Assembly: GCA_964360675.1 (NCBI GenBank)
Contig: CAYHXT010000001.1
Span: 10,491 to 74,490 of the forward strand
Direction: 5' to 3'
Origin: an uncultured Methanosarcinales archaeon
GTDB lineage: Archaea; Nanobdellota; Nanobdellia; Woesearchaeales; GW2011-AR9
DNA: 64,000 nt
The position numbers were made by a program, and so were the translations under genes. Shown piece after piece: positions 8,311-21,453 of this stretch. The notes under the pieces are model-generated. The model saw only the letters and a list, made by a program, of their open reading frames with translations. It ran no database searches and was not told where the DNA came from. Numbering within the stretch: position 1 is the stretch's first letter; every line of letters starts with the position of its first letter.

Positions 8311-9201
8311 ATGAAAAAAATTCCTAAAATAATCATTGCCATTCCCGCGTACAACGAAGAAAAAACTCTTCCTTTTGTTCTGCAGGAGATAACTGATGTT
8401 ATGAGAAATACCGCATATAACTATCAAATTTTAGTGTTGGATGATGGTTCGCGAGACCACACTGTTGAAGTTGCAAAATCTTACGATGCAGTAGTTGTTT
8501 CAAACCGCAGAAATATGGGGTTAGCAGAGACTTTCAGGGTAGAAATGAGGGAATGTTTACGCTTAGGGGCGGATATAATTGTCCATACCGATGCAGACGG
8601 CCAATACCATTCTAAACATATTCCGGAATTAATCCAAAAAGTTGAACAAGGGTGCGATTTAGTTTTAGGGAGCAGATTTAAGGGAAAAATAGAAAGCATG
8701 TCTCTCTTAAAGCAATTGGGAAATATTGCCTTTGCAGAAGTATTAAGTTCCCTCACCAAAGTGCGTATAACCGACTCAACTACGGGGTTCAGGGCATTTA
8801 CAGCTGAAGTTGCCAGAAATATAAATTATATTAACACTTTTACCTACACCCAGGAGCAGATCATCAAAGCTTCTAAGCAGGGTTTTAGAATAGCTGAAAT
8901 CCCCATCACTGCCAGAAAAACACGAGAAAGCAGGTTATTTAAGAATCCGTTTCAGTTTGCTTGGAGAGCCTGGATTAATATCTTTAGGATTTATCGTGAT
9001 TACGAACCTCTGATGTTTTTTGGAAGAATCGGCTTTGTGTTTCTTTCTTTTGGCGGGATAGTCGGGTTATGGTTAATATACAGATTTATTACTCTTGGAT
9101 CAGTTGGAAGATATCCCTCCACCATATTAAGCGCGTTACTTATAATGGTGGGGGTGCAAATAATATTATTTGGTTTCTTGGCTGATATGTTGCATAAATA
9201 A
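8311..9201 (+). CDS. GT2 glycosyltransferase with C-terminal TM helices (DPM1/GtrB-like polyprenyl-phosphate sugar transferase)
   Basis: IIIAIPAYNEEKTL and VLDDGSRD motifs. The C-terminal 70 aa is hydrophobic (two TM), typical of GtrB/ArnC. Confidence 0.75.
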   Translation: MKKIPKIIIAIPAYNEEKTLPFVLQEITDVMRNTAYNYQILVLDDGSRDHTVEVAKSYDAVVVSNRRNMGLAETFRVEMRECLRLGADIIVHTDADGQYHSKHIPELIQKVEQGCDLVLGSRFKGKIESMSLLKQLGNIAFAEVLSSLTKVRITDSTTGFRAFTAEVARNINYINTFTYTQEQIIKASKQGFRIAEIPITARKTRESRLFKNPFQFAWRAWINIFRIYRDYEPLMFFGRIGFVFLSFGGIVGLWLIYRFITLGSVGRYPSTILSALLIMVGVQIILFGFLADMLHK

Positions 9202-9282: not shown

Positions 9283-12168
9283 ATGGAAAAAGTAGTTAGG
9301 AAGATTGCTTATATCGGGGTAGTCTGCGACCTTTTCCATTACGGCCATCTACGTTCCATTCAATTTGCCAAATCTATCTCTGATTACTTGGTTTGCGGGG
9401 TGTTTACTGATGAAGTAGTAGAAGGATATCGGGTTAAGCCGATGGCTAATTATGAAGAGAGGAAAGCCGTGGTGGAAAGTCTTCGCGATGTGGATGCGGT
9501 TGTAGTTCAGGAACAAAGGGACCCCACTAAAAATTTACAACTCATTCATGAAGAGTTTCCAGAGGCAGAAATAATTTTAGTGCATGGTGATGATCTGCAT
9601 TATGTTCACGGAGAAGATTATATTAAAAGCATCGGCGGAAAAGTGGTAAAACACCCTTACTATCCCCGCCTTTCAAATTTTAAGATCATAAATTATCTGT
9701 TGGAAAATAAAGATAAATTCAAAGACATCACGGATTTTACTGCTTTTATAACTGAGAAAGATAAACTTGATGCCGAAGCGCACCAAGGAAATAAAGTGAT
9801 TATCTCTTCTAAAGCAGATACTCTTAAAGCTCTGCAGCCGCTATTGAAAAAATCTAAAATCGAGCCGTTGTATAGTTTTACTATCTCCGACTGGAAGAAT
9901 CAGAAAGAGCAGGTTCTGGCGAGAATACAAGAATTATTTTCTCCTTTTCTGATCGTGGTCAGAAGCTCTGCGGTAAAGGAAGATACTTTCGAACAATCCA
10001 TGGCCGGCTGTTTTGAAAGCGTGCTTAACGTTGATTCTGAAGAAAAAGCAAAAGTGGAAGAAGCAATAAATAAAGTATCCATATCTTACAAAGAAAAAGA
10101 TGCGGAAACTTCTTTCAATCAGATACTTGTTCAAAAGCAGACAGATGATGTCTCTATGAGCGGAGTGGTTTTTACCAGGACTTTAAGCAAAAACGGACCC
10201 TATTACGTCATAAATTACGACGATACTACCGGAAGCACCGATTCAGTGACTGCTGGCAGGGAAAACAAGACCCTCTACATAAGCCGATTCGCCTCTCAAA
10301 TCCCGAAAGAAATGGATGGTTTGATGAGTGCAGTAAGGGAAATTGAAAATATAATCCCTTCCTTCCCGTTAGACATTGAATTTGCCGTGCAGAGCGATGG
10401 AAGCATAGTTATTTTTCAAGTGCGCCCTTTAGCTGCGAATATATACAAGGAAAAATCTGACGAAGAAGTGAAACGGATGATTGATTCCTTAAAATTAACC
10501 TTTCAAAAACATACTGGTCGGCATCCGCATCTGGCGGGAGAAATAACTTTCTTTGGCGATATGCCCGACTGGAATCCGGCAGAAATAATCGGCGACAGGC
10601 CAAACAATCTGGATTATTCCTTATATGGCTATCTAATCACCGATAGCGCATGGCATGAAGCCAGGACTTCACAGGGATATTACAATGTCAATCCGGCCAG
10701 GTTGGTGGAGCTGTTTGGCAACAAACCTTATGTCAATGTGAGAAACACTTTCAATTCTTTTATACCCTCTTCAATTTCTCCGCAGCTGCGCGAAAAGTTA
10801 GTCTCATTTTACTTAGATAAATTGCGCAGAAATCCGCATCTTCAGGACAAGGTTGAATTTGAAGTTCTCTATACCTGTTACGACCTAAATTTTGACCAAA
10901 GGTCTAAAGAATTAGCTGGGGCGGGATTTTCACTCGAAGATATCGCCCAATTAAAAAGCGCTTTGTTATATCTGACCAACCATCTGATCACAGATGCGCC
11001 TAAATCGACAGATGACGATTTAAAAATCGTTTTCAGCATGAATGAATCACGTAAATCAATTTCTACTGTAATCGCAGAATCCGGCAGATCGCAGGAATTG
11101 ATTGCTGAATGTAAGGCCCTTCTAGACCAGTGCAGAAAGAAAGGGACGGTGCAGTTCTCTCGATTGGCAAGGCTGGGCTTCATCGCCAAAATAATATTTC
11201 GGAGCATGGTGGATAGAAAAGTTATAACTCAACAATTTTATGACCAAAAATACAAATCTATAAGCACCGTAGCTACAAAGATCAATGACGATTTTAAGAA
11301 ATTAATGAAGGGGGAATTATCAAAAGAAAATTTCATCAAGGAATATTATCATCTCCGGCCGGGAACATATGATATCACCAGCCCGCGTTATGATGCTAAT
11401 AAGGAACTCATCAACACGTTTAAAATAGTTGGGGGTGGGCTGGAAAAAGAAAGGCTGGAACTAACTAAAGAAGACGATATTAAAATTACCGCTGCATTGC
11501 AGGCGGAAGGATTATTGTGCAATGCAGAGCAATTCCTTAATTTTGTAGAATTATCAACGCAAGCAAGAGAGCTTTCTAAATTTGAATTTACCAAGAATCT
11601 CAGCGATGCTTTAGAATTACTTGCAGAAGCTGCAGAAAGGATGGGGCTTGCTAGAAAAGAGGTTGCTACACTTGATATTAATGATATTTTTTCCAGTATT
11701 TCCGTGCCGCAAACAGAAGAGATTGTAACCGGATGGAAAAAACTTATCCAGAAACACAGTTCCGAAAAAGCGCTGCATGAAAAATTAGTTCTTCCTCCAA
11801 TTATATTTTCCAGCAATGATTTTGAAGTAATACGGTTTTATCTGGCAAAACCTAATTTCATAACTCATAAAAATATTGAGAGTAAAATCGTCCACGTGAA
11901 CGACTTAAAAGACAAAATTGTCCCTGATCTTGAAGGTTGCGTGGTGGTTTTAGAAAATGGAGATCCGGGCTACGATTGGATATTTACCAGAAATCCGGCC
12001 GGATTGATTACGAAATATGGGGGGATCGCTTCGCATATGTCTATAAGGTGCGCAGAATTCGGCATCCCTGCGGCGATTGGCTGCGGCGAACTGATATTCA
12101 ATAAGCTTAAAACTGCGGAAAAAGTCATTCTGGATTGTAAATCAAATAAAATAATCCCTTTACCTTAA
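9283..12168 (+). CDS. fusion protein: N-terminal cytidylyltransferase (HxGH, TagD-like) fused to a PEP-synthase/rifampin-phosphotransferase-like kinase (PPDK_N ATP-grasp + phosphohistidine swivel domain)
   Basis: Residues 10-140: AYIGVVCDLFHYGHLRSIQFAK (cytidylyltransferase HxGH). Residues about 220-420: VRSSAVKEDTFEQSMAGCFESVLNV (PPDK_N signature). C-terminus: ITKYGGIASHMSIRCAEFGIPAAIGCG (PEP-utilisers phosphohistidine motif). The kinase part resembles the Cj1418 L-glutamine kinase architecture. Confidence 0.7.
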   Translation: MEKVVRKIAYIGVVCDLFHYGHLRSIQFAKSISDYLVCGVFTDEVVEGYRVKPMANYEERKAVVESLRDVDAVVVQEQRDPTKNLQLIHEEFPEAEIILVHGDDLHYVHGEDYIKSIGGKVVKHPYYPRLSNFKIINYLLENKDKFKDITDFTAFITEKDKLDAEAHQGNKVIISSKADTLKALQPLLKKSKIEPLYSFTISDWKNQKEQVLARIQELFSPFLIVVRSSAVKEDTFEQSMAGCFESVLNVDSEEKAKVEEAINKVSISYKEKDAETSFNQILVQKQTDDVSMSGVVFTRTLSKNGPYYVINYDDTTGSTDSVTAGRENKTLYISRFASQIPKEMDGLMSAVREIENIIPSFPLDIEFAVQSDGSIVIFQVRPLAANIYKEKSDEEVKRMIDSLKLTFQKHTGRHPHLAGEITFFGDMPDWNPAEIIGDRPNNLDYSLYGYLITDSAWHEARTSQGYYNVNPARLVELFGNKPYVNVRNTFNSFIPSSISPQLREKLVSFYLDKLRRNPHLQDKVEFEVLYTCYDLNFDQRSKELAGAGFSLEDIAQLKSALLYLTNHLITDAPKSTDDDLKIVFSMNESRKSISTVIAESGRSQELIAECKALLDQCRKKGTVQFSRLARLGFIAKIIFRSMVDRKVITQQFYDQKYKSISTVATKINDDFKKLMKGELSKENFIKEYYHLRPGTYDITSPRYDANKELINTFKIVGGGLEKERLELTKEDDIKITAALQAEGLLCNAEQFLNFVELSTQARELSKFEFTKNLSDALELLAEAAERMGLARKEVATLDINDIFSSISVPQTEEIVTGWKKLIQKHSSEKALHEKLVLPPIIFSSNDFEVIRFYLAKPNFITHKNIESKIVHVNDLKDKIVPDLEGCVVVLENGDPGYDWIFTRNPAGLITKYGGIASHMSIRCAEFGIPAAIGCGELIFNKLKTAEKVILDCKSNKIIPLP

Positions 12169-12169
12169 A

Positions 12170-12850
12170 ATGTTATGCGCTATTTCGTTACGGCAGGAAA
12201 AGAACAAGCATGGCGAGGATATTGATGTTTTAGAGCAAAGGTATATCCACTATTTTGAAAAATTCGGCTTGAAACTGCTGCTGATACCTAATGGTCATGA
12301 TGTCGATTATTACTTTGAAAAATTTCCAATAGAAAGGGTTGTCCTGAGCGGAGGAAACGATGTTGATCCGCAGATGTATGGCGGAAAACGTGAAGAAGGG
12401 ATGTCTATAGTTTCCGAACGCGATATAACAGAAAGAAGGATAGTAGAATTAGCTGTCAAGAAGAAGATACCTCTACTGGGAATATGCAGGGGGATGGAAT
12501 TTTTGAATATATATTTTGGCGGAAAATTGATTAATATCAAGAATGAATATGGCAAAGAGGCGCATCTGCCGGGGAAAGAGCATCCTCTGCACATACTTGA
12601 TGGCCAAGAGCTTCTCAGAAAAGAAGTTAGAGTAAACTCTTTCCATAATCAAGCTCTTACTGAGAAAGAGCTTTCTTCAAACTTGCAGGCATTTGCAGTC
12701 AGCGATGAAGGGATAATAGAAGGATTTAATCATTCTTCGTTGCCATTAGTTGGCGTACAGTGGCATCCTGAACGAGAAAGCCCAGATGAAGAATTTAATG
12801 CGCAATTAGTGAAAGCTTTTGTTGAAGGAAAATTGTGGTGGAAGAGATGA
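12170..12850 (+). CDS. class I glutamine amidotransferase-like hydrolase (peptidase C26 / gamma-glutamyl hydrolase type; Cj1417-like)
   Basis: Nucleophile motif LLGICRGMEFL and a C-terminal VQWHPE His-Pro-Glu motif. 226 aa. Confidence 0.6.
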   Translation: MLCAISLRQEKNKHGEDIDVLEQRYIHYFEKFGLKLLLIPNGHDVDYYFEKFPIERVVLSGGNDVDPQMYGGKREEGMSIVSERDITERRIVELAVKKKIPLLGICRGMEFLNIYFGGKLINIKNEYGKEAHLPGKEHPLHILDGQELLRKEVRVNSFHNQALTEKELSSNLQAFAVSDEGIIEGFNHSSLPLVGVQWHPERESPDEEFNAQLVKAFVEGKLWWKR

Positions 12851-13665
12851 AAGCCATTATTCTCGCAGCAGGTATGGGTACCCGCTTAGGCAAATACACC
12901 GAAGACCTTCCGAAATGCATGTTAACTTTTGATGGAAAACCATTGATCGAGAGGCAGGTTGAGACCCTGCGTAGTGCAGGCATCACTGATATTTCTATAG
13001 TTAGGGGATATAAATCTGAGAAAATAAGCCTTGCCGGAGTAAAATATTACCACAATCCAGATTTTGCGACAACTAACATGGTAGAAACTTTATTCTGCGC
13101 AGAAAAAGAGCTGGATGAAAAAGAAGATGTTTTGATATGTTATGCTGATATCATCTATGAACCTAAAGTTCTTCAATCAATAATTGAATCTGGTGCGCAG
13201 ATAGGCGTTACGGTCGACAATGATTATTTGGATTATTGGAAATCAAGGATGGATAATCCGGAATCGGACATGGAAAGTTTAGTGGTTGAGGATGGAATGA
13301 TAACCGAACTCGGCGATACTAAATGTGTCAGAGACAAAGCTGAAGTAAGATACGTTGGATTGATTAAGCTCTCCAAAGAAGGAGTGCGGAAACTAAAGGA
13401 AACATATCATTATCATAAACAACAGCACTTTCATAAAGATGAGCCTTGGCTGAGATCAAAATCTTTCAAGAAAGCATACATGACCTGCATGCTGCAGGCA
13501 TTGATTAACGCAGGGCACGAAGTTAAGCCGATTGTGATTTCGCGGGGCTGGTTAGAATTCGATACTGTTGAAGATTATGAGAAATACAGCAGATGGTTGG
13601 AAGAAGGGACGTTAAGCAGATTTATCAACTTGCAGTTAAACAATAGTATTTCACAACGTTTTTAA
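12847..13665 (+). CDS. sugar-phosphate/phospho-amine nucleotidyltransferase (NTP_transferase fold; LicC/Cj1416-like cytidylyltransferase candidate)
   Basis: MKAIILAAGMGTRLG N-terminal motif. Start chosen at the ATG overlapping the upstream stop (ATGA); the ORF track also allows a GTG at 12835. Confidence 0.6.
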   Translation: MKAIILAAGMGTRLGKYTEDLPKCMLTFDGKPLIERQVETLRSAGITDISIVRGYKSEKISLAGVKYYHNPDFATTNMVETLFCAEKELDEKEDVLICYADIIYEPKVLQSIIESGAQIGVTVDNDYLDYWKSRMDNPESDMESLVVEDGMITELGDTKCVRDKAEVRYVGLIKLSKEGVRKLKETYHYHKQQHFHKDEPWLRSKSFKKAYMTCMLQALINAGHEVKPIVISRGWLEFDTVEDYEKYSRWLEEGTLSRFINLQLNNSISQRF

Positions 13666-13689
13666 AGTAAATTCTCACTTTCATTTTAG

Positions 13690-15957
13690 GTGTCTAAAGG
13701 CATGGAAAAAAAGGTAAAGATAATTGTAACTATAGGGCCATCTACTAATTCTGAAGAAGCGATGCTTAAGATTAAGGATAAAGGCGTTGATTTTGTCAGA
13801 GTAAATATGTCTCATTCTGATATCAATTACCTTAAGGATACCATTGCCTTAGCCAAGAAAGTAGGTCTCCCTTTTGTAATTGATACTGAAGGATCACAGG
13901 TAAGAACCGGCGAGCTGGGCACTTCTACAATCGAATTGGAAGATAATGAAGAAATTAAAATTTATAATCATAAGATAGTCGGAGATAAAGACAAAATCAA
14001 CTTAACTCCTTATTCGGTAGTAGACCAATTAGAAGTGGGCGATTTAATCCTAGTAGATTTTGACACCGCAATATTGCGTATTTCTGACACGGCTACAATC
14101 AATCGGGGATATGTCACTGCCAGAGCTATCACCGGGGGAATAATCGGCAAAAATAAAGCAGTGATAATTGATCCCATATCCAATAAAAAAATAATCCTTC
14201 CCACTCTTTCGGAGAAGGATTATCAATCTATCCAAGTGGGCCTGCAGGAAGGGATTGGGCATATTGCCGCATCATTTATGCGTTCGGGCAAAGCAGTAGA
14301 TGAAGTGCGTAAAGCTACCCAAAATACCATGAAGATAATCTCAAAAGTTGAATGTATAGATGCCTTAGAGAACATTAATGATATTATTCGTAAATCTGAC
14401 TACCTGCTGATTGACAGGGGAGATCTCAGCAAAGAGATCCCCATTGAAAAAATTCCGTTAACTCAGAAGATGATAATCAACAAGGCAAAGAAGTATGGTG
14501 TCGGCGTATTTGTGGCTACTAATCTTCTGGAAACCATGATAGATCATAAGAAACCTACCAGGGCGGAAGTACATGATGTCCTAAACACCATTGTAGATGG
14601 TGCGGGAGGATTAGCATTAGCTGCAGAGACAGCTATCGGAAAATATCCCCTGGCTTGTATTAACATGCTGAACAAAATAATAAAGCATGCTCAACAGGTT
14701 AATGTTGAAGAATTCAGGGATAAAGAAGATAAATTTGTAGAAAAACTTGAAAAGAGCAATTATCTGCTTGATTTCGATATGTCTTCTTCTTTAGTCGCTC
14801 CCCACGGCGGTAAATTAGTTGATCGTATGGTTAAAGAAATGCCTTCCTCGAAATATCTTCATTCCCTGCCAGTTATAAAATTAAATGAAAGTCATCGGCG
14901 CGATGTGGAACAAATAGCAATAGGTACTTACAGCCCGATAGATGGTTTTATGGGAAAAGAAGATTTCCAATCGGTATTAGACAGAATGAGGCTGGCTAAC
15001 GGCCTGGTGTGGCCAATGCCCATAACTCTTGATGTCCCGGAGGATCAAGCAGATATGCTGCTATTGGGTTCTGAAATAGCTTTATCTGGCGATGAGGGCG
15101 AAATCATTGCTTTATTAGCCCTTCAGGAAAAATATACTTTTGATAAATCAGAGACTGCTCAAAAATTATATGCTACTGACAGCTTAGATCATCCTGGAGT
15201 AAAGATGATTATGGGAATGAATTCGGTTCTTCTCGCCGGACCAATAACTTTACTTAAAAGGATCAGGAATGAATTTAAGGAATATGAAATAACCCCTAAA
15301 CAAGCCCGCCGCCTTTTTGAAGAAAGAGGATGGGAGAAAGTAGTAGGTTTCCACACCAGAAATGTGATACATCGCAGTCATGAATTCATCCAGATGGAAG
15401 CATTGCAGAAAAGCAATTGCGACGGCCTTTTTGTACATCCTGTAGTTGGCAAGAAGAAATCAGGCGATTTCAGTGCTAAATTCATAATCAAAGCTTATGA
15501 TCTGATGATAAAAGATTTTTATCCCAAGAATAAAGTTATTTTTGGGACGTTTTCAACTTATTCCAGATATGCCGGACCGAGAGAAGCGCTGTTCACGGCT
15601 TTATGCAGGAAAAATTTCGGATGCAGCCATTTCATCGTAGGCCGTGATCATACCGGAGTGGGAAATTTCTACCATCCCAAGGCATCTCATAATATTTTTG
15701 ACCGCTTTCCTGATTTAGGCATCGTACCTATTCGTTTTGATAATGTGTTCTATACTAAAAAAGAAGGGCGTTATATGCACGAGCAGGAATATCCAAATCA
15801 CCCTGAAGAGGATAAGCTGCTTATCAGCGGCACTCAGGCCAGAAAAATGTTCGAGAACGGAGAACTGCCGCCCGGCTGGTTCATGCGTCCAGAGATTTCG
15901 CAGTTAATTATTGGTGCGGTCAAAAATGGAGAAGAAGTTTTTGTAAAAGATGTTTAA
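13690..15957 (+). CDS. fusion: pyruvate-kinase-like barrel domain (N-terminal 350 aa) + ATP sulfurylase (sulfate adenylyltransferase-like) domain
   Basis: N-terminal part: IIVTIGPS...VDFVRVNMSHSD...FVIDTEGSQVRTG, LIDRGDLSKEIPIEKIPLTQKMII and PTRAEVHDVLNTIVDGAGGLALAAETAIGKYP, all pyruvate kinase motifs. C-terminal part: LVAPHGGKLVDRMV, GFHTRNVIHRSHEFIQ (QTRN..HRAH) and GRDHTGVG (GRDHAG), the ATP sulfurylase signatures. Confidence 0.7.
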   Translation: MSKGMEKKVKIIVTIGPSTNSEEAMLKIKDKGVDFVRVNMSHSDINYLKDTIALAKKVGLPFVIDTEGSQVRTGELGTSTIELEDNEEIKIYNHKIVGDKDKINLTPYSVVDQLEVGDLILVDFDTAILRISDTATINRGYVTARAITGGIIGKNKAVIIDPISNKKIILPTLSEKDYQSIQVGLQEGIGHIAASFMRSGKAVDEVRKATQNTMKIISKVECIDALENINDIIRKSDYLLIDRGDLSKEIPIEKIPLTQKMIINKAKKYGVGVFVATNLLETMIDHKKPTRAEVHDVLNTIVDGAGGLALAAETAIGKYPLACINMLNKIIKHAQQVNVEEFRDKEDKFVEKLEKSNYLLDFDMSSSLVAPHGGKLVDRMVKEMPSSKYLHSLPVIKLNESHRRDVEQIAIGTYSPIDGFMGKEDFQSVLDRMRLANGLVWPMPITLDVPEDQADMLLLGSEIALSGDEGEIIALLALQEKYTFDKSETAQKLYATDSLDHPGVKMIMGMNSVLLAGPITLLKRIRNEFKEYEITPKQARRLFEERGWEKVVGFHTRNVIHRSHEFIQMEALQKSNCDGLFVHPVVGKKKSGDFSAKFIIKAYDLMIKDFYPKNKVIFGTFSTYSRYAGPREALFTALCRKNFGCSHFIVGRDHTGVGNFYHPKASHNIFDRFPDLGIVPIRFDNVFYTKKEGRYMHEQEYPNHPEEDKLLISGTQARKMFENGELPPGWFMRPEISQLIIGAVKNGEEVFVKDV

Positions 15958-15974
15958 ACAAAACAAAATAAAAC

Positions 15975-16559
15975 ATGGAAGATACCAACAATCCTAAATT
16001 ATTGATCGTCTTCTGCGGCCTTTCCGGCTCCGGAAAAAGTTTTAATGCCAGAAAGCTTCAGCAACATCTTCCTGGATATACTATTGTTGGTCCCGGCATT
16101 CTGCGTGAACAATTAAACATCAAAACCTACAGTAGAAAAGATACCCCCAAACTTCTTGCCAAAGTTATCGAACAAATCGAAGAAAACCTAAGAGAGAATA
16201 AAGGGTCTATTGTCGATGCTAACCTTAAAAGCCTGGATGTAAGGCAATTTTTCCACGACACAGCTAAAGAGCTGGGTATAGGTTCCGTTCTTATTGAAAC
16301 CTATTGTTCTTCCGAAACAACCAAAAGCCGCATGGAAAAAAGGGAGCAAAGAACTCTGGCAGAGAATCCCAAACATTTTACTGTTTATCTAGAACAAAAA
16401 CGGTCATGGCAAAACCCCTTATTAGACTTAGAATTAGAAAGGAACAATCATGTTTCGCTAATCCGCATAAACACCGAAAATAAAATGACTGACCAAATTA
16501 AGATAAATGAAAACAACAAATCGATGGTCAATAAAATAATGGAAATACTTAAAGAATGA
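15975..16559 (+). CDS. P-loop kinase, APS-kinase/CysC-like (candidate APS kinase or Cj1415-like CDP-amidate 3'-kinase)
   Basis: P-loop VFCGLSGSGKSF resembles the APS kinase GLSGSGKST loop. 194 aa. The remainder is not strongly CysC-like. Confidence 0.5.
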   Translation: MEDTNNPKLLIVFCGLSGSGKSFNARKLQQHLPGYTIVGPGILREQLNIKTYSRKDTPKLLAKVIEQIEENLRENKGSIVDANLKSLDVRQFFHDTAKELGIGSVLIETYCSSETTKSRMEKREQRTLAENPKHFTVYLEQKRSWQNPLLDLELERNNHVSLIRINTENKMTDQIKINENNKSMVNKIMEILKE

Positions 16560-16560
16560 A

Positions 16561-17502
16561 TTATTTCTTCTGCGCTAAAAACACGACACTATTGCCGAAT
16601 TTATAAATTCCGGGAATGTTCTTCTTATTACTGGCTGATTGCAGGTATCTGTCTAATCTTTTGGCAAACGGGAACAACACCCGTTTCTTAGTAAGGTATC
16701 CCGCCCCGTCATAACGTACAATATTGAATTGTTCCAGCTGAAATAATTTTTTTAATCTGCCAAAGGACAAAGCATTTTTACGCACTAAACCTATTTGTTT
16801 GTGCTGCTGCAAGCTTTCCTTATATTTTTCTGCTTTAGAAAAAACTGAAGATAGCGCAGCAGAAAAAAAATAAGGGATATAAAACAGCGGGGTATCCTGC
16901 CATCGTAATTCATAACGCCTTCGCGTAGTAAGATAATATAGCGACCTTATCCATTTTAAGGGCCCATCAATACTGCTGATGCCATACATATTGCGCTGTG
17001 CCAAAATGAAATGGCCGTTTGGTTTTAAAACACGTTTTACTTCACTAAAACACACTTCTGGAAACTGCAAATATTGTAAGAATCCCAATCCTGCAACACA
17101 ATCAAAAGAATTATTTGGAAAATCTAATTTTTCCGCGTTACCGATGAGGAATTCATAATTGCCCTTCGCATCGGCGGTAGATGTTTTCTGGCAGTTCTTG
17201 ATAGCAATTGCCCTTAATTTATTAGATATATCAATCCCAACTAAATTATGTCCTCTGGCATAAATCTTGGCAGAAGTTATACCTGCTCCGTATCCTAATT
17301 CCAGGACCCGCGCTCCCTGAGGCAAGTTTATAGAATCTAAATATTCTAAAACCGTTTCCTCCCTTCCCCGTAATCTATTCCCGTTGTAATTATCTTCATA
17401 ATAATGCTTTTCCCAGCGGCCTAAATCTTTCTCTTCATTCCACTTCTTTATTGCCTGTTGATTTTGATTATAATCCATAGTATTACCCTTCCTGCGCATC
17501 AA
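16561..17502 (-). CDS. class I SAM-dependent methyltransferase
   Basis: VLELGYGAGITSAKI motif I and a downstream VGIDIS acidic motif. 313 aa. Confidence 0.7.
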   Translation of the reverse strand: MMRRKGNTMDYNQNQQAIKKWNEEKDLGRWEKHYYEDNYNGNRLRGREETVLEYLDSINLPQGARVLELGYGAGITSAKIYARGHNLVGIDISNKLRAIAIKNCQKTSTADAKGNYEFLIGNAEKLDFPNNSFDCVAGLGFLQYLQFPEVCFSEVKRVLKPNGHFILAQRNMYGISSIDGPLKWIRSLYYLTTRRRYELRWQDTPLFYIPYFFSAALSSVFSKAEKYKESLQQHKQIGLVRKNALSFGRLKKLFQLEQFNIVRYDGAGYLTKKRVLFPFAKRLDRYLQSASNKKNIPGIYKFGNSVVFLAQKK

Positions 17503-17652: not shown

Positions 17653-18462
17653 GTGGAAATGAAATCATCTCTATACGGTTTGAAAAGATATGGTATGAAA
17701 AGTTTTCTTAAAAATGTCTTTTCCATCGCTGTTAGCGATGCCGTGGTAGTCTCCTTTCAAAAAAGCGGCAGGACGTGGTTACGTTTGATGTTAGGCAAAG
17801 TATTAGAAGAGCAATATAAAATAAAAAGAGTCCGTTTAGATACTGAATATATGACTTTATTCAAACTCTTACCGAATGTTTTATTTTCACATGGGGGGTG
17901 CACGAAAAATAACAATACAATTGATTTCAGGAAAGTGTTTAAAAATAAAAAAGTTGTGGTCTTGGCAAGAGATCCCCGTGCGGTTATGGTATCATTATTT
18001 TATGACCATACTACCCGTAACCTCTTGTATAATGGAAACAATATCTCCGAATTTATCCGTGATGAAAATTTTGGGCTGCCTAAGGTTATGAAGTTCATGG
18101 ACGCTTGGGGCGGAGAATTACAACAAAGAGATAACATTTTATTGATACGTTACGAAGATCTTTACACAGATACCCCAAAAGAACTGAAACGTTTCCTTGA
18201 ATTTATAGGTCTTACTGCAACAGAAGAAGTATTGAATCGTGCTGTAGAATATGGTTCTGTAAAGAATATGCGCAAAATGGAACTTAAAAATGAATTTAAA
18301 GACCGCCGTATGCTGCCAGGAGACACAAAAAACAAAAACTCATATCGTACCAGAAATTGTAAACTCGGCAGTTTCAGGGAAGAATTAAATAAAGAAGATT
18401 TAGATTATATAACCAAGTTAATGAAAGAACAATTGCATCCTATTTTTAACTATAATGGATAA
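17653..18462 (+). CDS. PAPS-dependent sulfotransferase
   Basis: 5'-PSB loop SFQKSGRTWL (K-S/T-G-T-W type) and 3'-PB motif ARDPRAVMVS (RDPRD type). 269 aa. Confidence 0.7.
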   Translation: MEMKSSLYGLKRYGMKSFLKNVFSIAVSDAVVVSFQKSGRTWLRLMLGKVLEEQYKIKRVRLDTEYMTLFKLLPNVLFSHGGCTKNNNTIDFRKVFKNKKVVVLARDPRAVMVSLFYDHTTRNLLYNGNNISEFIRDENFGLPKVMKFMDAWGGELQQRDNILLIRYEDLYTDTPKELKRFLEFIGLTATEEVLNRAVEYGSVKNMRKMELKNEFKDRRMLPGDTKNKNSYRTRNCKLGSFREELNKEDLDYITKLMKEQLHPIFNYNG

Positions 18463-18464
18463 CT

Positions 18465-19298
18465 ATGTTTTCTGCCCTTCCCATAAAAATCAGAGCAAAT
18501 CTTGCCCGTCCAGTTCTTGAAGCAGCAATTGCTGCCGGAAAGGAAATTTTACAAATATATAATCAAGATTTTAAAATTACATTTAAACAGCAACAAGAAC
18601 CGCTGACAGAAGCCGATCTTGTCAGCAATAAAATTATCTTAAAAGCGCTTAAGAAAACAAATATTGCCATTCTTTCAGAAGAAACTAAGGATAATTTAGA
18701 ACGAGTTGACCAGGATCTTCTATGGATTGTTGATCCATTAGATGGGACCCGGGAGTTTATCAACAAAAATGGAGAATTCTCTGTTATGGTTGGATTAGCA
18801 GAGAAAGGTATTCCGGTCCTTGGTATCATCTATCAGCCTACAACTAAAGATCTTTTTCTCTCCTCTAAAGGCGAAGGCGCATATGAAAAAACTACGGAAG
18901 GCTGGAAAAGGCTCAAAACCACCGCCATCACTACTTTGTCGGAAGCGCGCGGCATTTTAAGCAGAAATAATCTTTCTGAGGAAGAGGCCAGATTTTTAGA
19001 AAGAAATAACATCAATAAGTTTACGCAAAAAGGCAGCGCTGGGTTAAAAGCCGGGGAAATCTGCCGCGGCAACGCCGAATTTTATTTTAACAGCACAAAT
19101 AAACTCAAAGAATGGGATACCTGCGCGGCCCATAGCCTGATTCTAGAGGCGGGGGGCAACCTGACTACATTCAGGGGAGAGGAAATAACTTATAACAAAA
19201 AGGACCCGATACATCATGGAGGGGTTCTCTTTACCAATAATATAATCTTACATGAAAATCTACGGAAGAAAATAATTTCTAAATATAAGAATCTTTAA
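18465..19298 (+). CDS. cysQ: 3'(2'),5'-bisphosphate nucleotidase (inositol monophosphatase family)
   Basis: WIVDPLDGTREF metal-binding motif of the IMPase/CysQ family. Translationally coupled to the sulfotransferase, with a 2-nt gap. Confidence 0.75.
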   Translation: MFSALPIKIRANLARPVLEAAIAAGKEILQIYNQDFKITFKQQQEPLTEADLVSNKIILKALKKTNIAILSEETKDNLERVDQDLLWIVDPLDGTREFINKNGEFSVMVGLAEKGIPVLGIIYQPTTKDLFLSSKGEGAYEKTTEGWKRLKTTAITTLSEARGILSRNNLSEEEARFLERNNINKFTQKGSAGLKAGEICRGNAEFYFNSTNKLKEWDTCAAHSLILEAGGNLTTFRGEEITYNKKDPIHHGGVLFTNNIILHENLRKKIISKYKNL

Positions 19299-20734
19299 TG
19301 TTTTCTCCAAAAATAAAATAATTTCTTATCTTCAGCATTAAATTCCCGCATTAACCATAATAACAAGATATACAAAATAAATAATAAAGTAGAATAAAGT
19401 AATAATCCTATTCCCTTAGCCGGAAGTAAGCGTATTAAAAAAAATAAAGGCGCTGTTGCTAAAATAATGCGGATAAATGACTGCCAGGGAACAAATTTCC
19501 CCGAAATATTGAACAGAGAAAATGTCTGTATAAGGCAGGCTATAAATCCAATTAGGCCCGCAAACAATGTTGCTAACGCCGCCCCTTCCAGGCCGTAGCG
19601 CGGAATAAAAATCAATCCTGATATAAACGCTGCCAACAATGAAACCAAGGCAATTATCATCGCAAAAACATGGCGTCCCGCCCCCGATAATACTGAAGAA
19701 AGTAAGAAAAACAACGCGAAAAATCCGTGCCCTATAATCAGGATGCGTAATGCGTTACCTGCAACTATAAATTCATTAGGATAAAATAATGAAAGTATTT
19801 GTTCTGCGTAACCGTAAATCAAAACACCCAAAGGGATTAATAACATAAGGGAATAGCGCAATGAAAGCGCAACATATTTTTTAACAAGAAATAAATTATT
19901 TTCTGCCACTGCTTTAGAAACAGACGGAAGTAATGTTAGTGGCAATGCCGAAAGCAAGGAGAATGTAATCTTGGCCAAAGTGCTTGCTGCGGTATAATAT
20001 CCCGGTAATGCAGCATCATCCAATTGGCTCTTAATCAAAAACAATCCCGCATCCATGGCCAGCATCAAAGCACCATAATAAACTGTAATAGGCAGTGAAA
20101 ATTTTAACAGAGTTATTATCGGAAATACCTCCCTTGATTTTTCTAAAGAAATAGTCTTCCAAACAAAAAGAAGCGCGAATAAAGGCGCAATGATATATGC
20201 AAACACCACCCCATACAAATTGAACCCAAAATAAACTAATCCAATAGCTAACAAAAATCTAACTACGGAGTGGATTGCTTCTGCCAAGGCTTGCTCTTTG
20301 AAAAGTCTCATCCCATTGAGATAACCATCGTTATATACTACATAAATCCCCACGGATAGGACTACCAGGGAGGATAAACGAATGGGCCAGATTAAAGAAG
20401 AATCGTGTAGTTTTTCGGCTAAAAATCCGGCAAAGAAAAAATACAATATCACACAAAGAGAAATAAATAGCAATTGCAAATGAAACCCGCTTCTTAGCAC
20501 TGCATGGAAAGATTCTTTCTGTTCCGAAATGTATTTTGAAATCGCTTTCGTCGTTCCAGTCAAAAATAAAGTCTTTGTAATCATAATAATAGAAAGGATA
20601 ATTCCCATATTGCCATAGGCTGCTGCGCTTACTAGGTGCGCCAAGGAAATATGGAGCAAATAACCGGAGAGTAAAATCACAAACTGTGTTGCCATCAGAT
20701 AGGCAGTTCCCTTTGCAACGACGTGCTGATCCAT
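19295..20734 (-). CDS. MOP-superfamily polysaccharide transporter (Wzx-like flippase)
   Basis: 479 aa with about 12-14 TM helices and the glycine- and leucine-rich polytopic profile typical of O-unit flippases. Confidence 0.6.
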   Translation of the reverse strand: MDQHVVAKGTAYLMATQFVILLSGYLLHISLAHLVSAAAYGNMGIILSIIMITKTLFLTGTTKAISKYISEQKESFHAVLRSGFHLQLLFISLCVILYFFFAGFLAEKLHDSSLIWPIRLSSLVVLSVGIYVVYNDGYLNGMRLFKEQALAEAIHSVVRFLLAIGLVYFGFNLYGVVFAYIIAPLFALLFVWKTISLEKSREVFPIITLLKFSLPITVYYGALMLAMDAGLFLIKSQLDDAALPGYYTAASTLAKITFSLLSALPLTLLPSVSKAVAENNLFLVKKYVALSLRYSLMLLIPLGVLIYGYAEQILSLFYPNEFIVAGNALRILIIGHGFFALFFLLSSVLSGAGRHVFAMIIALVSLLAAFISGLIFIPRYGLEGAALATLFAGLIGFIACLIQTFSLFNISGKFVPWQSFIRIILATAPLFFLIRLLPAKGIGLLLYSTLLFILYILLLWLMREFNAEDKKLFYFWRKH

Positions 20735-21453
20735 TAAATCTCTCCTGGTTTATCTAGACGGTAATTGTTATTTAATTGAGTTGCGACTTTTCTTATCAGT
20801 TCTAAGAATAAAAATAAGGTGTAAATCACGAGAACATAATAATGTAATCCTAAAAGTGTTCCGAAAAACATCAGATTAAAAAGATATTCTAATCTAAAAA
20901 ATGCAAACACGGAATAAAGTAACGTATGCTGATTCTTAAGCAGTGACTTTCCAAAAGATGCCTCTATAAGATGCTGATGTTTTTTATCTGAGTACCACAA
21001 AGGATTAAGCGTCGTTGCCTTATTCAATAAAAACAGCAGTGCGGCGAAAATACCCAGCAACAGCGGTAAGATTTTTCCGGTAATTCTAAATGTGCCTATG
21101 CCAAAACATATAAGCAATAGGGGATTAGCAATGTAGTGCCCTAAATAATCAAAATATATCCCATTAAGGGAAAACTGCTTCTTATAACGGGCGATAATTC
21201 CGTCGGAACAATCCAGAATAAAGAATAGTTGGAAAATAGTTACGCCTATGAGCATAGATAACCAAGTGCCTTTTGCAACAAAAAGCGCTGATGCGATCTG
21301 CCCGATAATCCAGATAATAGTTACTTGGTTGGCAGTTAGGGGCGTATGTAAAAATAGCCAAGCCGGATAATAAGCCAGATAATCCATAAAGGAATAGATG
21401 AAATCTCTTCTTTTAGTTTTAGATATTTTACGTAATTCTTTGATGGTTATCAT
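20734..21453 (-). CDS. CDP-alcohol phosphatidyltransferase family membrane protein
   Basis: DCSDGIIARYKKQFSLNGIYFDYLG matches D-x2-D-G-x2-A-R-x8-G-x3-D. Polytopic, 239 aa. Confidence 0.55.
   Translation of the reverse strand: MITIKELRKISKTKRRDFIYSFMDYLAYYPAWLFLHTPLTANQVTIIWIIGQIASALFVAKGTWLSMLIGVTIFQLFFILDCSDGIIARYKKQFSLNGIYFDYLGHYIANPLLLICFGIGTFRITGKILPLLLGIFAALLFLLNKATTLNPLWYSDKKHQHLIEASFGKSLLKNQHTLLYSVFAFFRLEYLFNLMFFGTLLGLHYYVLVIYTLFLFLELIRKVATQLNNNYRLDKPGEI

What the first reader, a model, noticed from the sequence alone, without database searches (positions are those of the whole stretch)
9283..16559. Rearranged and fused homolog set of the Campylobacter phosphoramidate-donor pathway (Cj1415-Cj1418)
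Five consecutive + strand genes encode the following. First, a PEP-synthase/rifampin-phosphotransferase-like kinase, the architecture of L-glutamine kinase Cj1418, here with an extra TagD-like HxGH cytidylyltransferase domain fused at its N-terminus. Second, a class I GATase-like hydrolase with a Cys/His-Pro-Glu triad, like the gamma-glutamyl-CDP-amidate hydrolase Cj1417. Third, an NTP_transferase-fold cytidylyltransferase candidate, Cj1416-like. Fourth, an APS-kinase-like P-loop kinase, like Cj1415, which 3'-phosphorylates cytidine diphosphoramidate. That combination is exactly the enzyme set that makes 3'-phospho-cytidine-5'-diphosphoramidate, the donor for O-methyl phosphoramidate capsule decoration in C. 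jejuni. Finding it in fused form (cytidylyltransferase + kinase), inside a low-GC glycan locus and interleaved with a sulfation module, suggests a phosphoramidate or related phospho-amide glycan modification in this organism. The fused cytidylyltransferase domain could channel the phosphorylated amino acid. The substrate may not be glutamine.
Basis: partly seen in the sequence, partly recalled or inferred. Interest (0 to 1): 0.8.

Follow-up and report, generated by a model that had tools for sequence, protein, structure and literature searches.

The report
Archaeal phosphoramidate-donor pathway with sulfation module
A tiny groundwater archaeon carries clear relatives of three of the four Campylobacter enzymes that build the activated phosphoramidate used to decorate surface sugars, with an extra cytidylyltransferase fused to the first one, sitting in one operon with a separate sulfate-activation module; the variant is widespread in nature but has never been tested.

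Summary
The five ORFs exist exactly as described. Three form a conserved module. It comprises a 961-aa cytidylyltransferase + glutamine-kinase fusion, a Peptidase_C26 hydrolase and an NTP_transf_3 transferase. Gene order is that of cj1418-cj1417-cj1416, and it recurs in about 70 of 80 bacterial and archaeal loci. Natural fusions link the kinase to C26, NTP_transf_3 or APS-kinase domains. The module most likely makes cytidine diphosphoramidate from glutamine, ATP and CTP.

The fourth claimed member is not supported. The 194-aa kinase gives no APS-kinase (PF01583) hit and its predicted fold is closest to PFK-2/PNK. It follows the pyruvate-kinase/ATP-sulfurylase fusion in 7 of 7 contexts, including loci without the glutamine-kinase module. 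It is most likely the APS kinase of a separable PAPS/sulfotransferase/CysQ module.

The fused cytidylyltransferase is an extra domain, because the Cj1416-like gene is always kept. Bacteria often fuse a non-homologous NTP_transf_3 domain at the same position, and such loci mostly lack an APS-kinase gene. The fusion is common: over 100 DPANN clusters, and 27 of the 150 best family representatives. JGI already names such proteins "glutamine kinase".

Verdict: new variant of a known pathway. The role of the extra domain and the identity of the transferase are open.

The parts
9283..12168 (+). 961-aa fusion protein: N-terminal cytidylyltransferase domain + L-glutamine-kinase-family domain (module A, step 1)
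   Evidence: Pfam PF01467 + PF01326 + PF00391. NCBIfam NF004508 scores 844 bits against a cutoff of 501, over aa 169-960. More than 100 full-length homologues at 48-72% identity, all from DPANN archaea, five of them named 'glutamine kinase' by JGI.
9298..9687 (+). Fused HxGH-class cytidylyltransferase domain (aa 6-135); HxGH motif FHYGH at nt 9334-9348
   Evidence: Aligns end to end with PDB 5x3d_A (E 5e-17), then with ECT and TagD. FHYGHL is at least 90% conserved in 165 family members. The RTxGISTT motif is replaced by pyY..LS..kI.
9787..12165 (+). Glutamine-kinase-family domain (aa 169-961); predicted phospho-carrier His918 at nt 12034-12036 in GGIASHMSIR
   Evidence: S-H-M and flanking residues are invariant in the 21-sequence alignment A1. 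The family has 1540 clusters (50% identity) at E<1e-30.
12170..12850 (+). Peptidase_C26 / class I GATase-type hydrolase, Cj1417-like (module A, step 3: releases glutamate from CDP-glutamine)
   Evidence: PF07722 scores 128 bits. The best NCBIfam model is NF045546, gamma-glutamyl-CDP-amidate hydrolase, at 93 bits; this is below its 250-bit cutoff. The protein is 29% identical (E 3e-26) to the C26 domain naturally fused to a glutamine kinase in P0219. A C26 gene lies directly after the kinase in most of the 80 loci.
12835..13665 (+). NTP_transf_3 nucleotidyltransferase, Cj1416-like (module A, step 2: CTP + phosphoglutamine -> CDP-glutamine); the likelier start is the ATG at 12847
   Evidence: PF12804 and PF00483. 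The best PDB hit is LicC 1jyk. It is 28% identical over its full length (E 2e-33) to the NTP_transf_3 domain fused to the kinase in P0187. JGI names its 66-67% identical homologues 'L-glutamine-phosphate cytidylyltransferase', and C26+NTP_transf_3 fusions exist (P0364, P0402). It groups with the stand-alone post-C26 transferases of all architectures.
13690..15957 (+). Pyruvate-kinase barrel + PUA_2 + ATP sulfurylase fusion (module B: sulfate -> APS)
   Evidence: PF00224 at 233 bits, PF14306 at 165 bits, PF01747 at 260 bits. NF003166 sulfate adenylyltransferase scores 442 bits, above its cutoff. The same fusion occurs in L006, L008, L009, L011, L018, L092 and L093.
15975..16559 (+). 194-aa AAA_33/PFK-2/PNK-like P-loop kinase; probable non-orthologous APS 3'-kinase of module B (P-loop GLSGSGKS at nt 16017)
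16561..17502 (-). SAM-dependent methyltransferase, convergent with the operon; possible O-methylation of the modification (inferred only)
   Evidence: Methyltransf_11 at 72 bits. It occupies the same position in L006 and L018, but is absent from the module-B-only locus L008.
17653..18462 (+). PAPS-type sulfotransferase (module B)
   Evidence: PF00685 at 94 bits. The 5'-PSB-like motif QKSGRTW and the 3'-PB-like motif RDPR are present.
18465..19298 (+). CysQ-like 3'(2'),5'-bisphosphate nucleotidase (module B)
   Evidence: PF00459 at 169 bits. TIGR01331 scores 183 bits, below its cutoff of 229.
20734..21453 (-). Divergent CDP-alcohol phosphotransferase-family membrane protein; candidate user of a CDP-linked donor
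   Evidence: PF01066 at 25 bits, cutoff 22. Its motif reads D-x2-DG-x2-AR-x8-G-x3-D-x3-H, with the last Asp replaced by His. A family member lies within 10 kb in 10 of 15 CT-fused loci, against 3 of 34 stand-alone-kinase loci.

Best explanation
The region holds two separable modules that this archaeon transcribes as one operon inside a surface-glycan locus.

Module A (9283-13665) is a homologue of the Campylobacter Cj1418/Cj1417/Cj1416 route.
1. [quoted passage not shown]
2. A cytidylyltransferase joins the product to CMP from CTP, giving CDP-L-glutamine.
3. The C26 hydrolase removes glutamate, leaving cytidine diphosphoramidate, an activated phosphoramidate for decorating a glycan or lipid.

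The N-terminal Fom1/TagD-like cytidylyltransferase domain is an additional nucleotidyltransferase. It does not replace the Cj1416-like one. Its most likely job is to cytidylylate the labile phosphoglutamine made by the domain it is fused to. This is inference, and the division of labour with the free NTP_transf_3 enzyme is unknown.

Module B comprises 13690-16559 plus 17653-19298. It activates sulfate with the PK-ATP sulfurylase fusion. The 194-aa PFK-2/PNK-like kinase, acting as a non-orthologous APS kinase, 3'-phosphorylates APS. A sulfotransferase uses the PAPS, and CysQ clears PAP.

The phosphoramidate may be passed on directly from CDP-amidate by the neighbouring CDP-alcohol-phosphotransferase-like protein. 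Alternatively it may first be 3'-phosphorylated by the same 194-aa kinase. Neither route is shown.
For: Family assignments
- Kinase domain: NF004508 at 844 bits, above its cutoff. The protein lacks a PEP/pyruvate-binding domain. JGI names close homologues 'glutamine kinase'.
- C26 protein: its best NCBIfam model is the Cj1417 equivalog.
- NTP_transf_3 protein: JGI names close homologues 'L-glutamine-phosphate cytidylyltransferase'.

Synteny
- Kinase, then C26, then NTP_transf_3 is the order of cj1418c-cj1416c. It recurs in most of 80 loci from Woesearchaeota, Altiarchaeales, Haloferax, Pseudomonas, Legionella, Clostridia, CPR bacteria and others.
- An APS-kinase gene completes the Campylobacter order in many of these loci.

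Natural fusions tie the four activities together
- NTP_transf_3-kinase (P0187), kinase-C26 (P0219), APS-kinase-kinase (P0282) and APS-kinase-CT-kinase (P0102).
- C26-NTP_transf_3 (P0364).

The CT domain is extra
- All 27 NT-fused loci with adequate flanks keep both C26 and a stand-alone NTP_transf_3 gene.
- The stand-alone transferases form one family across architectures.
- HxGH is at least 90% conserved.

The modules are separable
- L003, L013 and L017 have module A without B. L008 and L092 have the sulfurylase and kinase without A.
- The 194-aa kinase follows the sulfurylase in 7 of 7 contexts. Where it is absent, L018 has a canonical APS kinase in its place after the sulfurylase, and L011 has an APS-kinase-CysQ fusion nearby.

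Known pathway
- Cj1415-Cj1418 make CDP-phosphoramidate 3'-phosphate from glutamine, ATP and CTP (PMC11800397).
Against: - I could not obtain the Cj1415-Cj1418 sequences, so no direct comparison was made. The assignments rest on HMMs, on names given by JGI, on gene order and on fusions.
- I recall that NF004508/PRK05849 covers Cj1418, but I did not verify this.
- The C26 protein scores below the curated cutoff of the Cj1417 model (93 against 250 bits).
- No phosphoramidate has ever been reported from an archaeon.
- The window holds no homologue of the neighbour families seen in other loci (fam16, fam22, fam9/fam4, TagF-like). The enzyme that uses the donor is therefore unidentified.
- Two cytidylyltransferases for one step is unexplained.
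- Module A lies next to 5 of the 7 contexts of the 194-aa kinase, so a shared or dual role is not excluded.
Confidence: 0.65

Rival explanations
1. The operon encodes a complete Cj1415-Cj1418 equivalent. The 194-aa kinase is the cytidine-diphosphoramidate 3'-kinase, either exclusively or as a dual APS/CDP-amidate kinase. The final donor is 3'-phospho-CDP-amidate, and CysQ clears the 3',5'-CDP by-product.
For: - The kinase is co-transcribed with module A in the window, L009 and L093, and module A is adjacent in 5 of its 7 contexts.
- Related DPANN loci carry an APS-kinase domain without any sulfurylase. It is fused to the kinase in L003 and free in L012 and L014. So a 3'-kinase step exists in this lineage.
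- The chemistry is the same as for APS: 3'-OH phosphorylation of a 5'-substituted nucleotide.
Against: - It is not homologous to Cj1415/APS kinase beyond the P-loop.
- It sits immediately after the sulfurylase in 7 of 7 contexts and persists where module A is absent (L008, L092).
- In L018 a canonical APS kinase occupies its place after the sulfurylase, and L011 has an APS-kinase-CysQ fusion nearby.
Confidence: 0.2
2. The fused cytidylyltransferase and the nearby CDP-alcohol phosphotransferase form a separate CDP-alcohol or CDP-phosphonate head-group route. It would resemble the use of CDP-glycerol, CDP-ethanolamine or Fom1-type CMP-phosphonates. The fusion to the kinase would then reflect co-regulation only, and the free NTP_transf_3 enzyme alone would serve the phosphoramidate route.
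For: - The closest solved relatives of the CT domain act on hydroxyethylphosphonate (5x3d, function recalled from memory), ethanolamine phosphate and glycerol 3-phosphate.
- CDP-alcohol phosphotransferase genes accompany 10 of 15 CT-fused loci.
- The Cj1416-like gene is always retained.
Against: - Bacterial CT-fused loci (L029, L033, L034, L039, L051) have no CDP-alcohol phosphotransferase nearby.
- That gene also follows NTP_transf_3 directly in loci without any CT domain (L023, L066).
- A non-homologous NTP_transf_3 paralogue is fused at the same site in 52 of 150 representatives. This argues for a role tied to the kinase itself.
Confidence: 0.12
3. Module A acts on a different amide or gamma-glutamyl substrate, or yields a product other than a phosphoramidate. 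One example would be a CDP-linked amino acid that is transferred whole.
For: - No substrate-binding residues could be checked, because no Cj1418 structure appeared in the PDB searches.
- The C26 protein scores below the Cj1417 equivalog cutoff.
- The accessory genes around the module differ widely between lineages.
Against: - The kinase, C26 and NTP_transf_3 genes are retained together, and in the same order, in most of the loci, including loci with the full Campylobacter gene order.
- C26 enzymes cleave gamma-glutamyl amide bonds, which fits a glutamine-derived intermediate (family knowledge).
Confidence: 0.08
4. ORF1 is an ordinary PEP synthase or pyruvate phosphate dikinase, or a rifampicin-phosphotransferase-type enzyme, and the neighbours are unrelated glycan genes.
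For: It shares the PPDK_N ATP-grasp and the mobile His domain with those enzymes.
Against: - It scores about 53 bits or less on the PEP-synthase and PPDK models, whose cutoffs run from 456 to over 1000 bits, and 22 bits on rifamycin phosphotransferase (cutoff 999).
- It has no PEP-utilizers_C domain.
- Synteny and fusions with C26, NTP_transf_3 and APS kinase are strong.
Confidence: 0.01

Closest known systems
Campylobacter jejuni MeOPN donor pathway: Cj1418 L-glutamine kinase, Cj1416 CTP:phosphoglutamine cytidylyltransferase, Cj1417 gamma-glutamyl-CDP-amidate hydrolase, Cj1415 cytidine diphosphoramidate kinase
   Same: The first three steps use the same three enzyme families, and the gene order is the same: kinase, hydrolase, nucleotidyltransferase. 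The module is embedded in a surface-polysaccharide locus with methyltransferases nearby.
   Different: An extra HxGH-class cytidylyltransferase is fused to the kinase. There is no APS-kinase-family (Cj1415-type) gene in the 64-kb window. I could not check for Cj1421/Cj1422-type transferases because their sequences were not obtainable. The host is a DPANN archaeon, and the module is co-transcribed with a PAPS module.
Bacterial NTP_transf_3-glutamine-kinase fusions (for example P0187; loci L028-L090; the Vibrio alfacsensis plasmid locus L091)
   Same: An additional nucleotidyltransferase domain sits at the N-terminus of the kinase, while the stand-alone Cj1416-like gene is kept. APS-kinase genes are mostly absent from these loci (1 of 12).
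   Different: The fused domain has a different fold: Rossmann-like NTP_transf_3 in the bacteria, HxGH cytidylyltransferase here. The two are analogous rather than homologous solutions.
Fom1 of fosfomycin biosynthesis (PDB 5x3d, cytidylyltransferase domain fused to PEP mutase; function recalled from memory)
   Same: It is the closest solved relative of the fused domain (E 5e-17, aa 6-135). In both cases a small CMP-transferase is fused to the enzyme that makes an unusual phosphorus bond.
   Different: The partner domain there is PEP mutase, which makes a P-C bond. Here it is a glutamine kinase, which makes a P-N bond. The C-terminal substrate motif also differs.
PAPS pathway: Sat / CysC / sulfotransferase / CysQ
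   Same: ATP sulfurylase, a PAPS-type sulfotransferase with 5'-PSB and 3'-PB motifs, and CysQ are all present and adjacent.
   Different: The sulfurylase carries an N-terminal pyruvate-kinase barrel. The APS-kinase slot is filled by a PFK-2/PNK-like kinase known from only 22 DPANN protein clusters.
Borg (Methanoperedens extrachromosomal element) cluster proposed for MeOPN biosynthesis (bioRxiv 10.1101/2024.11.05.622173)
   Same: It is an archaeal-associated cluster in which Cj1418-, Cj1417- and Cj1416-like proteins were inferred by structure comparison. It also has two cytidylyltransferase-like proteins.
   Different: There the extra transferase is fused to a PEP mutase, not to the kinase. That work did not analyse DPANN archaea or the sulfation linkage.

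Membership tests
L-glutamine kinase (Cj1418 family; NCBIfam NF004508/PRK05849) | ATP-grasp (PPDK_N) + mobile phospho-histidine domain, without the PEP/pyruvate-binding C-terminal domain | tested here: met
   Pfam finds PF01326 and PF00391 only. Scores on PEP-synthase and PPDK models are about 53 bits or less, against cutoffs of 456 to over 1000 bits.
L-glutamine kinase (Cj1418 family; NCBIfam NF004508/PRK05849) | Score above the curated family cutoff | tested here: met
   NF004508 scores 844 bits against a cutoff of 501, over aa 169-960. That this model contains Cj1418 is recalled, not verified. JGI names 55-58% identical homologues 'glutamine kinase'.
L-glutamine kinase (Cj1418 family; NCBIfam NF004508/PRK05849) | Conserved phospho-carrier histidine | tested here: met
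   His918 lies in GGIASHMSIR, and S-H-M is invariant in alignment A1.
L-glutamine kinase (Cj1418 family; NCBIfam NF004508/PRK05849) | ATP-dependent N-phosphorylation of the L-glutamine amide; glutamine-binding residues | not testable with these tools
   No solved structure of the family was found, and the Raushel papers are not held.
gamma-glutamyl-CDP-amidate hydrolase (Cj1417; NF045546) | Score above the curated equivalog cutoff | tested here: not met
   The score is 93 bits against a cutoff of 250, although this is the best-scoring model. PuuD gives 48 bits. A C26 domain physically fused to a glutamine kinase (P0219) scores only 65 bits, so the cutoff excludes genuine partners of the kinase.
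gamma-glutamyl-CDP-amidate hydrolase (Cj1417; NF045546) | Cys-His-Glu triad of class I amidotransferase/C26 enzymes, and a position directly after the kinase gene | tested here: met
   GICRG and QWHPE are present. A C26 gene follows the kinase in most of the 80 loci, and is present in all 27 NT-fused and 28 of 34 stand-alone loci that have adequate flanks.
CTP:phosphoglutamine cytidylyltransferase (Cj1416) | NTP_transf_3/LicC-like fold with the GxGTRL motif, encoded after the hydrolase gene | tested here: met
   PF12804. The best PDB hit is LicC 1jyk. Position and family are conserved. JGI gives the name to 66-67% identical homologues.
CTP:phosphoglutamine cytidylyltransferase (Cj1416) | Direct sequence comparison with Cj1416; activity with phosphoglutamine | not tested
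   The Cj1416 sequence was not obtainable. No Campylobacter locus was among the 80 returned, and the afdb50 library was unavailable.
Cytidine diphosphoramidate kinase (Cj1415; APS-kinase family PF01583/PRK05541) | Membership of the APS-kinase family | tested here: not met
Cytidine diphosphoramidate kinase (Cj1415; APS-kinase family PF01583/PRK05541) | Genomic association with the glutamine-kinase set, independent of sulfate activation | tested here: not met
   The kinase always follows the PK-ATP sulfurylase gene (7 of 7 contexts) and is present in L008 and L092 without module A.
HxGH cytidylyltransferase (PF01467; TagD/ECT/Fom1 class) | HxGH nucleotide-binding motif | tested here: met
   FHYGH lies at aa 18-22 and is at least 90% conserved in 165 sequences.
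HxGH cytidylyltransferase (PF01467; TagD/ECT/Fom1 class) | C-terminal RTxGISTT motif | tested here: not met
   It is replaced by a conserved pyY..LS..kI motif. 5x3d has PYTPGISSTRL at the aligned position.
CDP-alcohol phosphotransferase (PF01066) | D-x2-DG-x2-AR-x8-G-x3-D-x3-D motif | tested here: inconclusive
   All positions are present except the last Asp, which is His in the window and in about half of the neighbouring family. The Pfam score of 25 bits is just above the cutoff of 22.

The most novel reading that the evidence does not exclude
Kinases fused to a nucleotidyltransferase may mark a second, uncharacterised branch of phosphoramidate biosynthesis. Either the HxGH or the NTP_transf_3 fold is used, and these fusions make up more than half of the nearest family representatives. 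In this branch the donor would not be 3'-phosphorylated. Cytidine diphosphoramidate, or CDP-glutamine, would instead be used directly by CMP-releasing phosphotransferases such as CDP-alcohol-phosphotransferase-like, TagF-like or 'fam22' proteins. In Woesearchaeota this branch is physically merged with PAPS synthesis. A single novel PFK-2-like 3'-kinase and CysQ might then serve both the sulfate donor and the phosphoramidate donor. Phosphoramidate glycan or lipid decoration, so far regarded as specific to Campylobacter, would then be common across bacteria and archaea.
Probability: 0.25. Interest if true: 0.75.

Novelty: new variant of a known kind. Interest (0 to 1): 0.55.

Why it matters
[quoted passage not shown] Here the kinase-hydrolase-transferase core was found in at least 587 stretches of species-representative genomes, spread over many bacterial and archaeal phyla. 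It comes in several fused architectures. The variant in this window predominates among its closest relatives, which are all DPANN archaea that depend on their cell surface for host contact.

If the module really makes a P-N donor, three consequences follow:
- Phosphoramidate decoration would be a widespread surface chemistry.
- The extra nucleotidyltransferase and the missing APS-kinase gene would point to an unknown way of using the donor.
- Cultured carriers such as Haloferax elongans, Cohnella, Pseudomonas, Marinobacter and Legionella septentrionalis would offer tractable test systems.

Tried and rejected
1. Obtaining the Cj1415-Cj1418 and Cj1421/22 sequences for direct comparison.
- The genome-contig scan returned 80 loci but none from Campylobacter.
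- The Raushel primary papers are not held.
- No family member appears in the PDB.
- The afdb50 fold library was unavailable.
- All comparison with the Campylobacter enzymes is therefore indirect.

2. Looking for the phosphoramidate transferase.
- I clustered all neighbours across the loci. This gave fam16 (SGNH-like motifs, next to the APS kinase), fam22, fam9 + a formyltransferase-like fam4, and TagF-like proteins.
- None has a homologue in the window.
- hhalign found no link between these families and the sulfotransferase.

3. Testing whether the 194-aa kinase is a divergent APS kinase.

4. Testing whether the stand-alone NTP_transf_3 gene in fused loci is a different paralogue.
- The NJ tree rejects this. 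Only the fused NTP_transf_3 domains form a separate clade.

5. Searching the literature for a pyruvate-kinase/ATP-sulfurylase fusion.
- Nothing was found.

6. Using plasmid annotations to see how PGAP names the family.
- Only generic names appeared, such as 'PEP-utilizing enzyme'.

7. The link between N-terminal fusion and missing APS kinase.
- APS kinase is present in 23 of 34 stand-alone loci against 7 of 27 fused loci (Fisher p = 0.002).
- This is not corrected for phylogeny, and it ignores APS-kinase genes elsewhere in the genomes. I treat it as a lead only.

Full report
**What is there**

The window is part of a 99.5-kb contig from Hainich groundwater (ENA ERZ1292621). The closest relatives of its proteins come from Woesearchaeota/Nanoarchaeota (DPANN) genomes. 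The five + strand ORFs of the finding are real and tightly packed, with gaps of 1, -16, 24 and 17 nt. They continue an operon that starts with a carbamoyltransferase (6533-8272) and an AglJ-like GT2 (8311-9201).

Downstream lie a convergent methyltransferase, a sulfotransferase, CysQ, a flippase and a CDP-alcohol-phosphotransferase-like protein. Many sugar-nucleotide genes follow. GC content is uniform across the window, so the region is not a low-GC island.

**Module A: kinase, hydrolase, transferase**

ORF1 (961 aa) combines three Pfam domains: PF01467 (aa 16-108), PPDK_N and the mobile PEP-utilizers domain. It has no PEP/pyruvate-binding domain.
- Residues 169-960 score 844 bits on NCBIfam NF004508, cutoff 501. 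PEP-synthase, PPDK and rifamycin-phosphotransferase models score 53 bits or less, against cutoffs of 456 to over 1000 bits.
- JGI names homologues that are 55-58% identical 'glutamine kinase'.
- The phospho-carrier histidine motif (GGIASHMSIR, His918) is invariant across a diverse alignment.

ORF2 is a Peptidase_C26 enzyme with the Cys/His/Glu triad.
- Its best NCBIfam model is the Cj1417 equivalog at 93 bits. That is below the 250-bit cutoff but well above PuuD (48 bits) and TrpG-type models.
- A C26 domain that is physically fused to a glutamine kinase (P0219) scores even lower, at 65 bits. It is 29% identical to ORF2.

ORF3 is an NTP_transf_3 enzyme.
- Its best solved relative is LicC.
- It aligns over its full length with the NTP_transf_3 domain fused to a bacterial glutamine kinase (P0187; 28% identity, E 2e-33).
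- JGI names 66-67% identical homologues 'L-glutamine-phosphate cytidylyltransferase'. C26+NTP_transf_3 fusions also exist.

**Comparative evidence**

The kinase family is large, with 1540 clusters (50% identity) at E<1e-30. At least 587 stretches in species-representative genomes encode a relative.

I mapped seed proteins onto the 80 best loci plus the metagenomic loci. The order kinase, C26, NTP_transf_3 is nearly universal. It is the same as cj1418c-cj1417c-cj1416c. An APS-kinase gene, the Cj1415 family, completes the Campylobacter order in many of these loci.

Natural fusions link every pair of activities:
- NTP_transf_3-kinase, kinase-C26, APS-kinase-kinase and APS-kinase-CT-kinase.
- C26-NTP_transf_3.

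The pathway itself is established biochemistry. Cj1415-Cj1418 make CDP-phosphoramidate 3'-phosphate from glutamine, ATP and CTP (PMC11800397). I therefore take module A to make cytidine diphosphoramidate. This is an inference from homology, synteny and fusions. No direct comparison with the Campylobacter sequences was possible.

**The fused cytidylyltransferase**

The domain aligns end to end (aa 6-135, E 5e-17) with PDB 5x3d_A. I recall that chain as the Fom1 cytidylyltransferase domain, which cytidylylates hydroxyethylphosphonate. Weaker matches follow to ethanolamine-phosphate and glycerol-3-phosphate cytidylyltransferases. The HxGH motif is at least 90% conserved in 165 sequences. The RTxGISTT motif is replaced by a family-specific motif.

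The domain is not a replacement for Cj1416. All 27 loci with an N-terminally fused transferase and adequate flanks keep both C26 and the stand-alone NTP_transf_3 gene. Those stand-alone genes form one family across architectures.

Among the 150 best family representatives the architectures are:

| Architecture | Count |
|---|---|
| Stand-alone kinase | 60 |
| NTP_transf_3 paralogue fused at the N-terminus | 52 |
| HxGH cytidylyltransferase fused at the N-terminus | 27 |
| APS-kinase-kinase | 3 |
| Kinase-C26 | 1 |
| Fragments | 7 |

Two unrelated transferase folds have thus been recruited to the same site. The fused NTP_transf_3 domains form a separate paralogue clade.

Loci with a fusion mostly lack an APS-kinase gene nearby. 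It is present in 1 of 12 NTP_transf_3-fused loci and 6 of 15 CT-fused loci, against 23 of 34 stand-alone loci. The comparison gives Fisher p = 0.002, uncorrected for phylogeny.

What the extra domain does is not shown. I favour on-enzyme cytidylylation of the labile phosphoglutamine.

**The 194-aa kinase and module B**

ORF5 has a P-loop but is not an APS kinase:
- No PF01583 hit.
- BLAST and hhalign against the APS-kinase domains of related loci align only the P-loop region.

It has only 22 homologues, all from DPANN archaea. In 7 of 7 independent contexts it immediately follows the pyruvate-kinase/PUA/ATP-sulfurylase fusion. These include L008 and L092, where module A is absent. In L018 a canonical APS kinase sits in its place, and L011 has an APS-kinase-CysQ fusion nearby instead.

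With the PAPS-type sulfotransferase (5'-PSB and 3'-PB motifs) and CysQ, this forms a sulfation module. ORF5 is the probable non-orthologous APS kinase of that module.

Modules A and B are separable. L003, L013 and L017 have A only. The two are nonetheless adjacent in 5 of the 7 contexts of this kinase. Sulfate-adenylyltransferase genes also flank module A on a Vibrio plasmid and in a Saprospiraceae genome. A dual role for the kinase therefore cannot be excluded.

**Use of the donor**

The window has no homologue of the accessory families that accompany module A elsewhere: fam16, fam22, fam9/fam4 and TagF-like proteins.

Its only candidate is a divergent CDP-alcohol-phosphotransferase-like membrane protein at 20734-21453. 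The catalytic motif is intact except that the last Asp is replaced by His. Members of this family lie within 10 kb in 10 of 15 CT-fused loci. One directly follows NTP_transf_3 in two bacterial operons.

Such enzymes release CMP from CDP-linked donors, so direct use of CDP-amidate is chemically plausible. It is unproven.

**Novelty**

Reviews call the glutamine kinase specific to C. jejuni. One preprint proposes a MeOPN-like cluster on archaeal Borg elements. JGI's automatic annotation already names these DPANN proteins 'glutamine kinase'.

The finding is therefore a new variant of a known pathway, not a new kind of system.

Noticed in passing
window 13690-15957 (+); also L006, L008, L009, L011, L018, L092, L093: A pyruvate-kinase barrel domain, without the PK C-terminal domain, is fused N-terminally to PUA_2 + ATP sulfurylase. 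The fusion is conserved in Woesearchaeota. A literature search found no description of it. It might couple PEP-driven ATP regeneration to the unfavourable sulfate-activation step.
   Followed up: partly
window 36132-38432 (+): A DegT/DnrJ-type sugar aminotransferase (766 aa) is interrupted by an intein (Intein_splicing/Hint, aa 208-581).
   Followed up: no
window 23913-25448 (-) and 25605-26894 (-): Two B12-binding radical SAM proteins lie inside the glycan locus, next to a DUF354 protein and a UDP-glucose dehydrogenase. They may catalyse C-methylation or another radical modification of a sugar.
   Followed up: no
L093 2846-3286 (-): In a close relative of the window locus, a HIT-family protein (PF01230) sits between the C26 and NTP_transf_3 genes. 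HIT/Hint enzymes hydrolyse nucleoside phosphoramidates (family knowledge), so it could be a proofreading or salvage partner.
   Followed up: no
L046, L054, L056, L074, L078, L025, L032, L015, L048 and others: In Pseudomonas, Cohnella and other loci, an unknown ~200-aa protein (fam9) and a formyltransferase-like protein (fam4) lie between the APS-kinase and glutamine-kinase genes. In L016 and L019 the two are fused (~450 aa). They form a conserved, uncharacterised accessory pair of the pathway and are absent from the window.
   Followed up: partly
L003, L013, L014, L017, L023, L063, L066, L068, L070, L088: A ~425-aa protein with an N-terminal membrane segment and SGNH/GDSL-like motifs (GDSFT, GxNxG) lies directly beside the APS-kinase gene in 8 of 10 loci. 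It has no Pfam hit. It is a candidate partner of the 3'-phosphorylated donor.
   Followed up: partly
L037 (Haloferax elongans ATCC BAA-1513); also L025/L032 (Cohnella), L046/L054 (Pseudomonas), L067 (Legionella septentrionalis), L044/L055 (Marinobacter): Cultured organisms carry the kinase-C26-NTP_transf_3 core. Haloferax has NTP_transf_3-kinase, C26, NTP_transf_3 and APS kinase. They are possible experimental models for phosphoramidate chemistry outside Campylobacter.
   Followed up: no
L091 (Vibrio alfacsensis plasmid pYa108) and L031 (Saprospiraceae): cysD/cysN sulfate-adenylyltransferase genes flank the glutamine-kinase module in unrelated bacteria too. In Vibrio a TagF-like 'CDP-glycerol glycerophosphotransferase family' gene follows the NTP_transf_3 gene. 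The sulfation/phosphoramidate neighbourhood therefore recurs beyond DPANN archaea.
   Followed up: partly
window 54690-55133 (+): A second, stand-alone PF01467 cytidylyltransferase-like protein (147 aa, 69 bits) lies elsewhere in the window. Its function was not examined.
   Followed up: no
window 12835 / 13690: The mechanical ORF starts (GTG) of the NTP_transf_3 and PK-sulfurylase genes are probably 12 nt too far upstream. Public gene calls, and the conserved N-terminus of the NTP_transf_3 homologues, begin at the ATGs at 12847 and 13702.
   Followed up: yes
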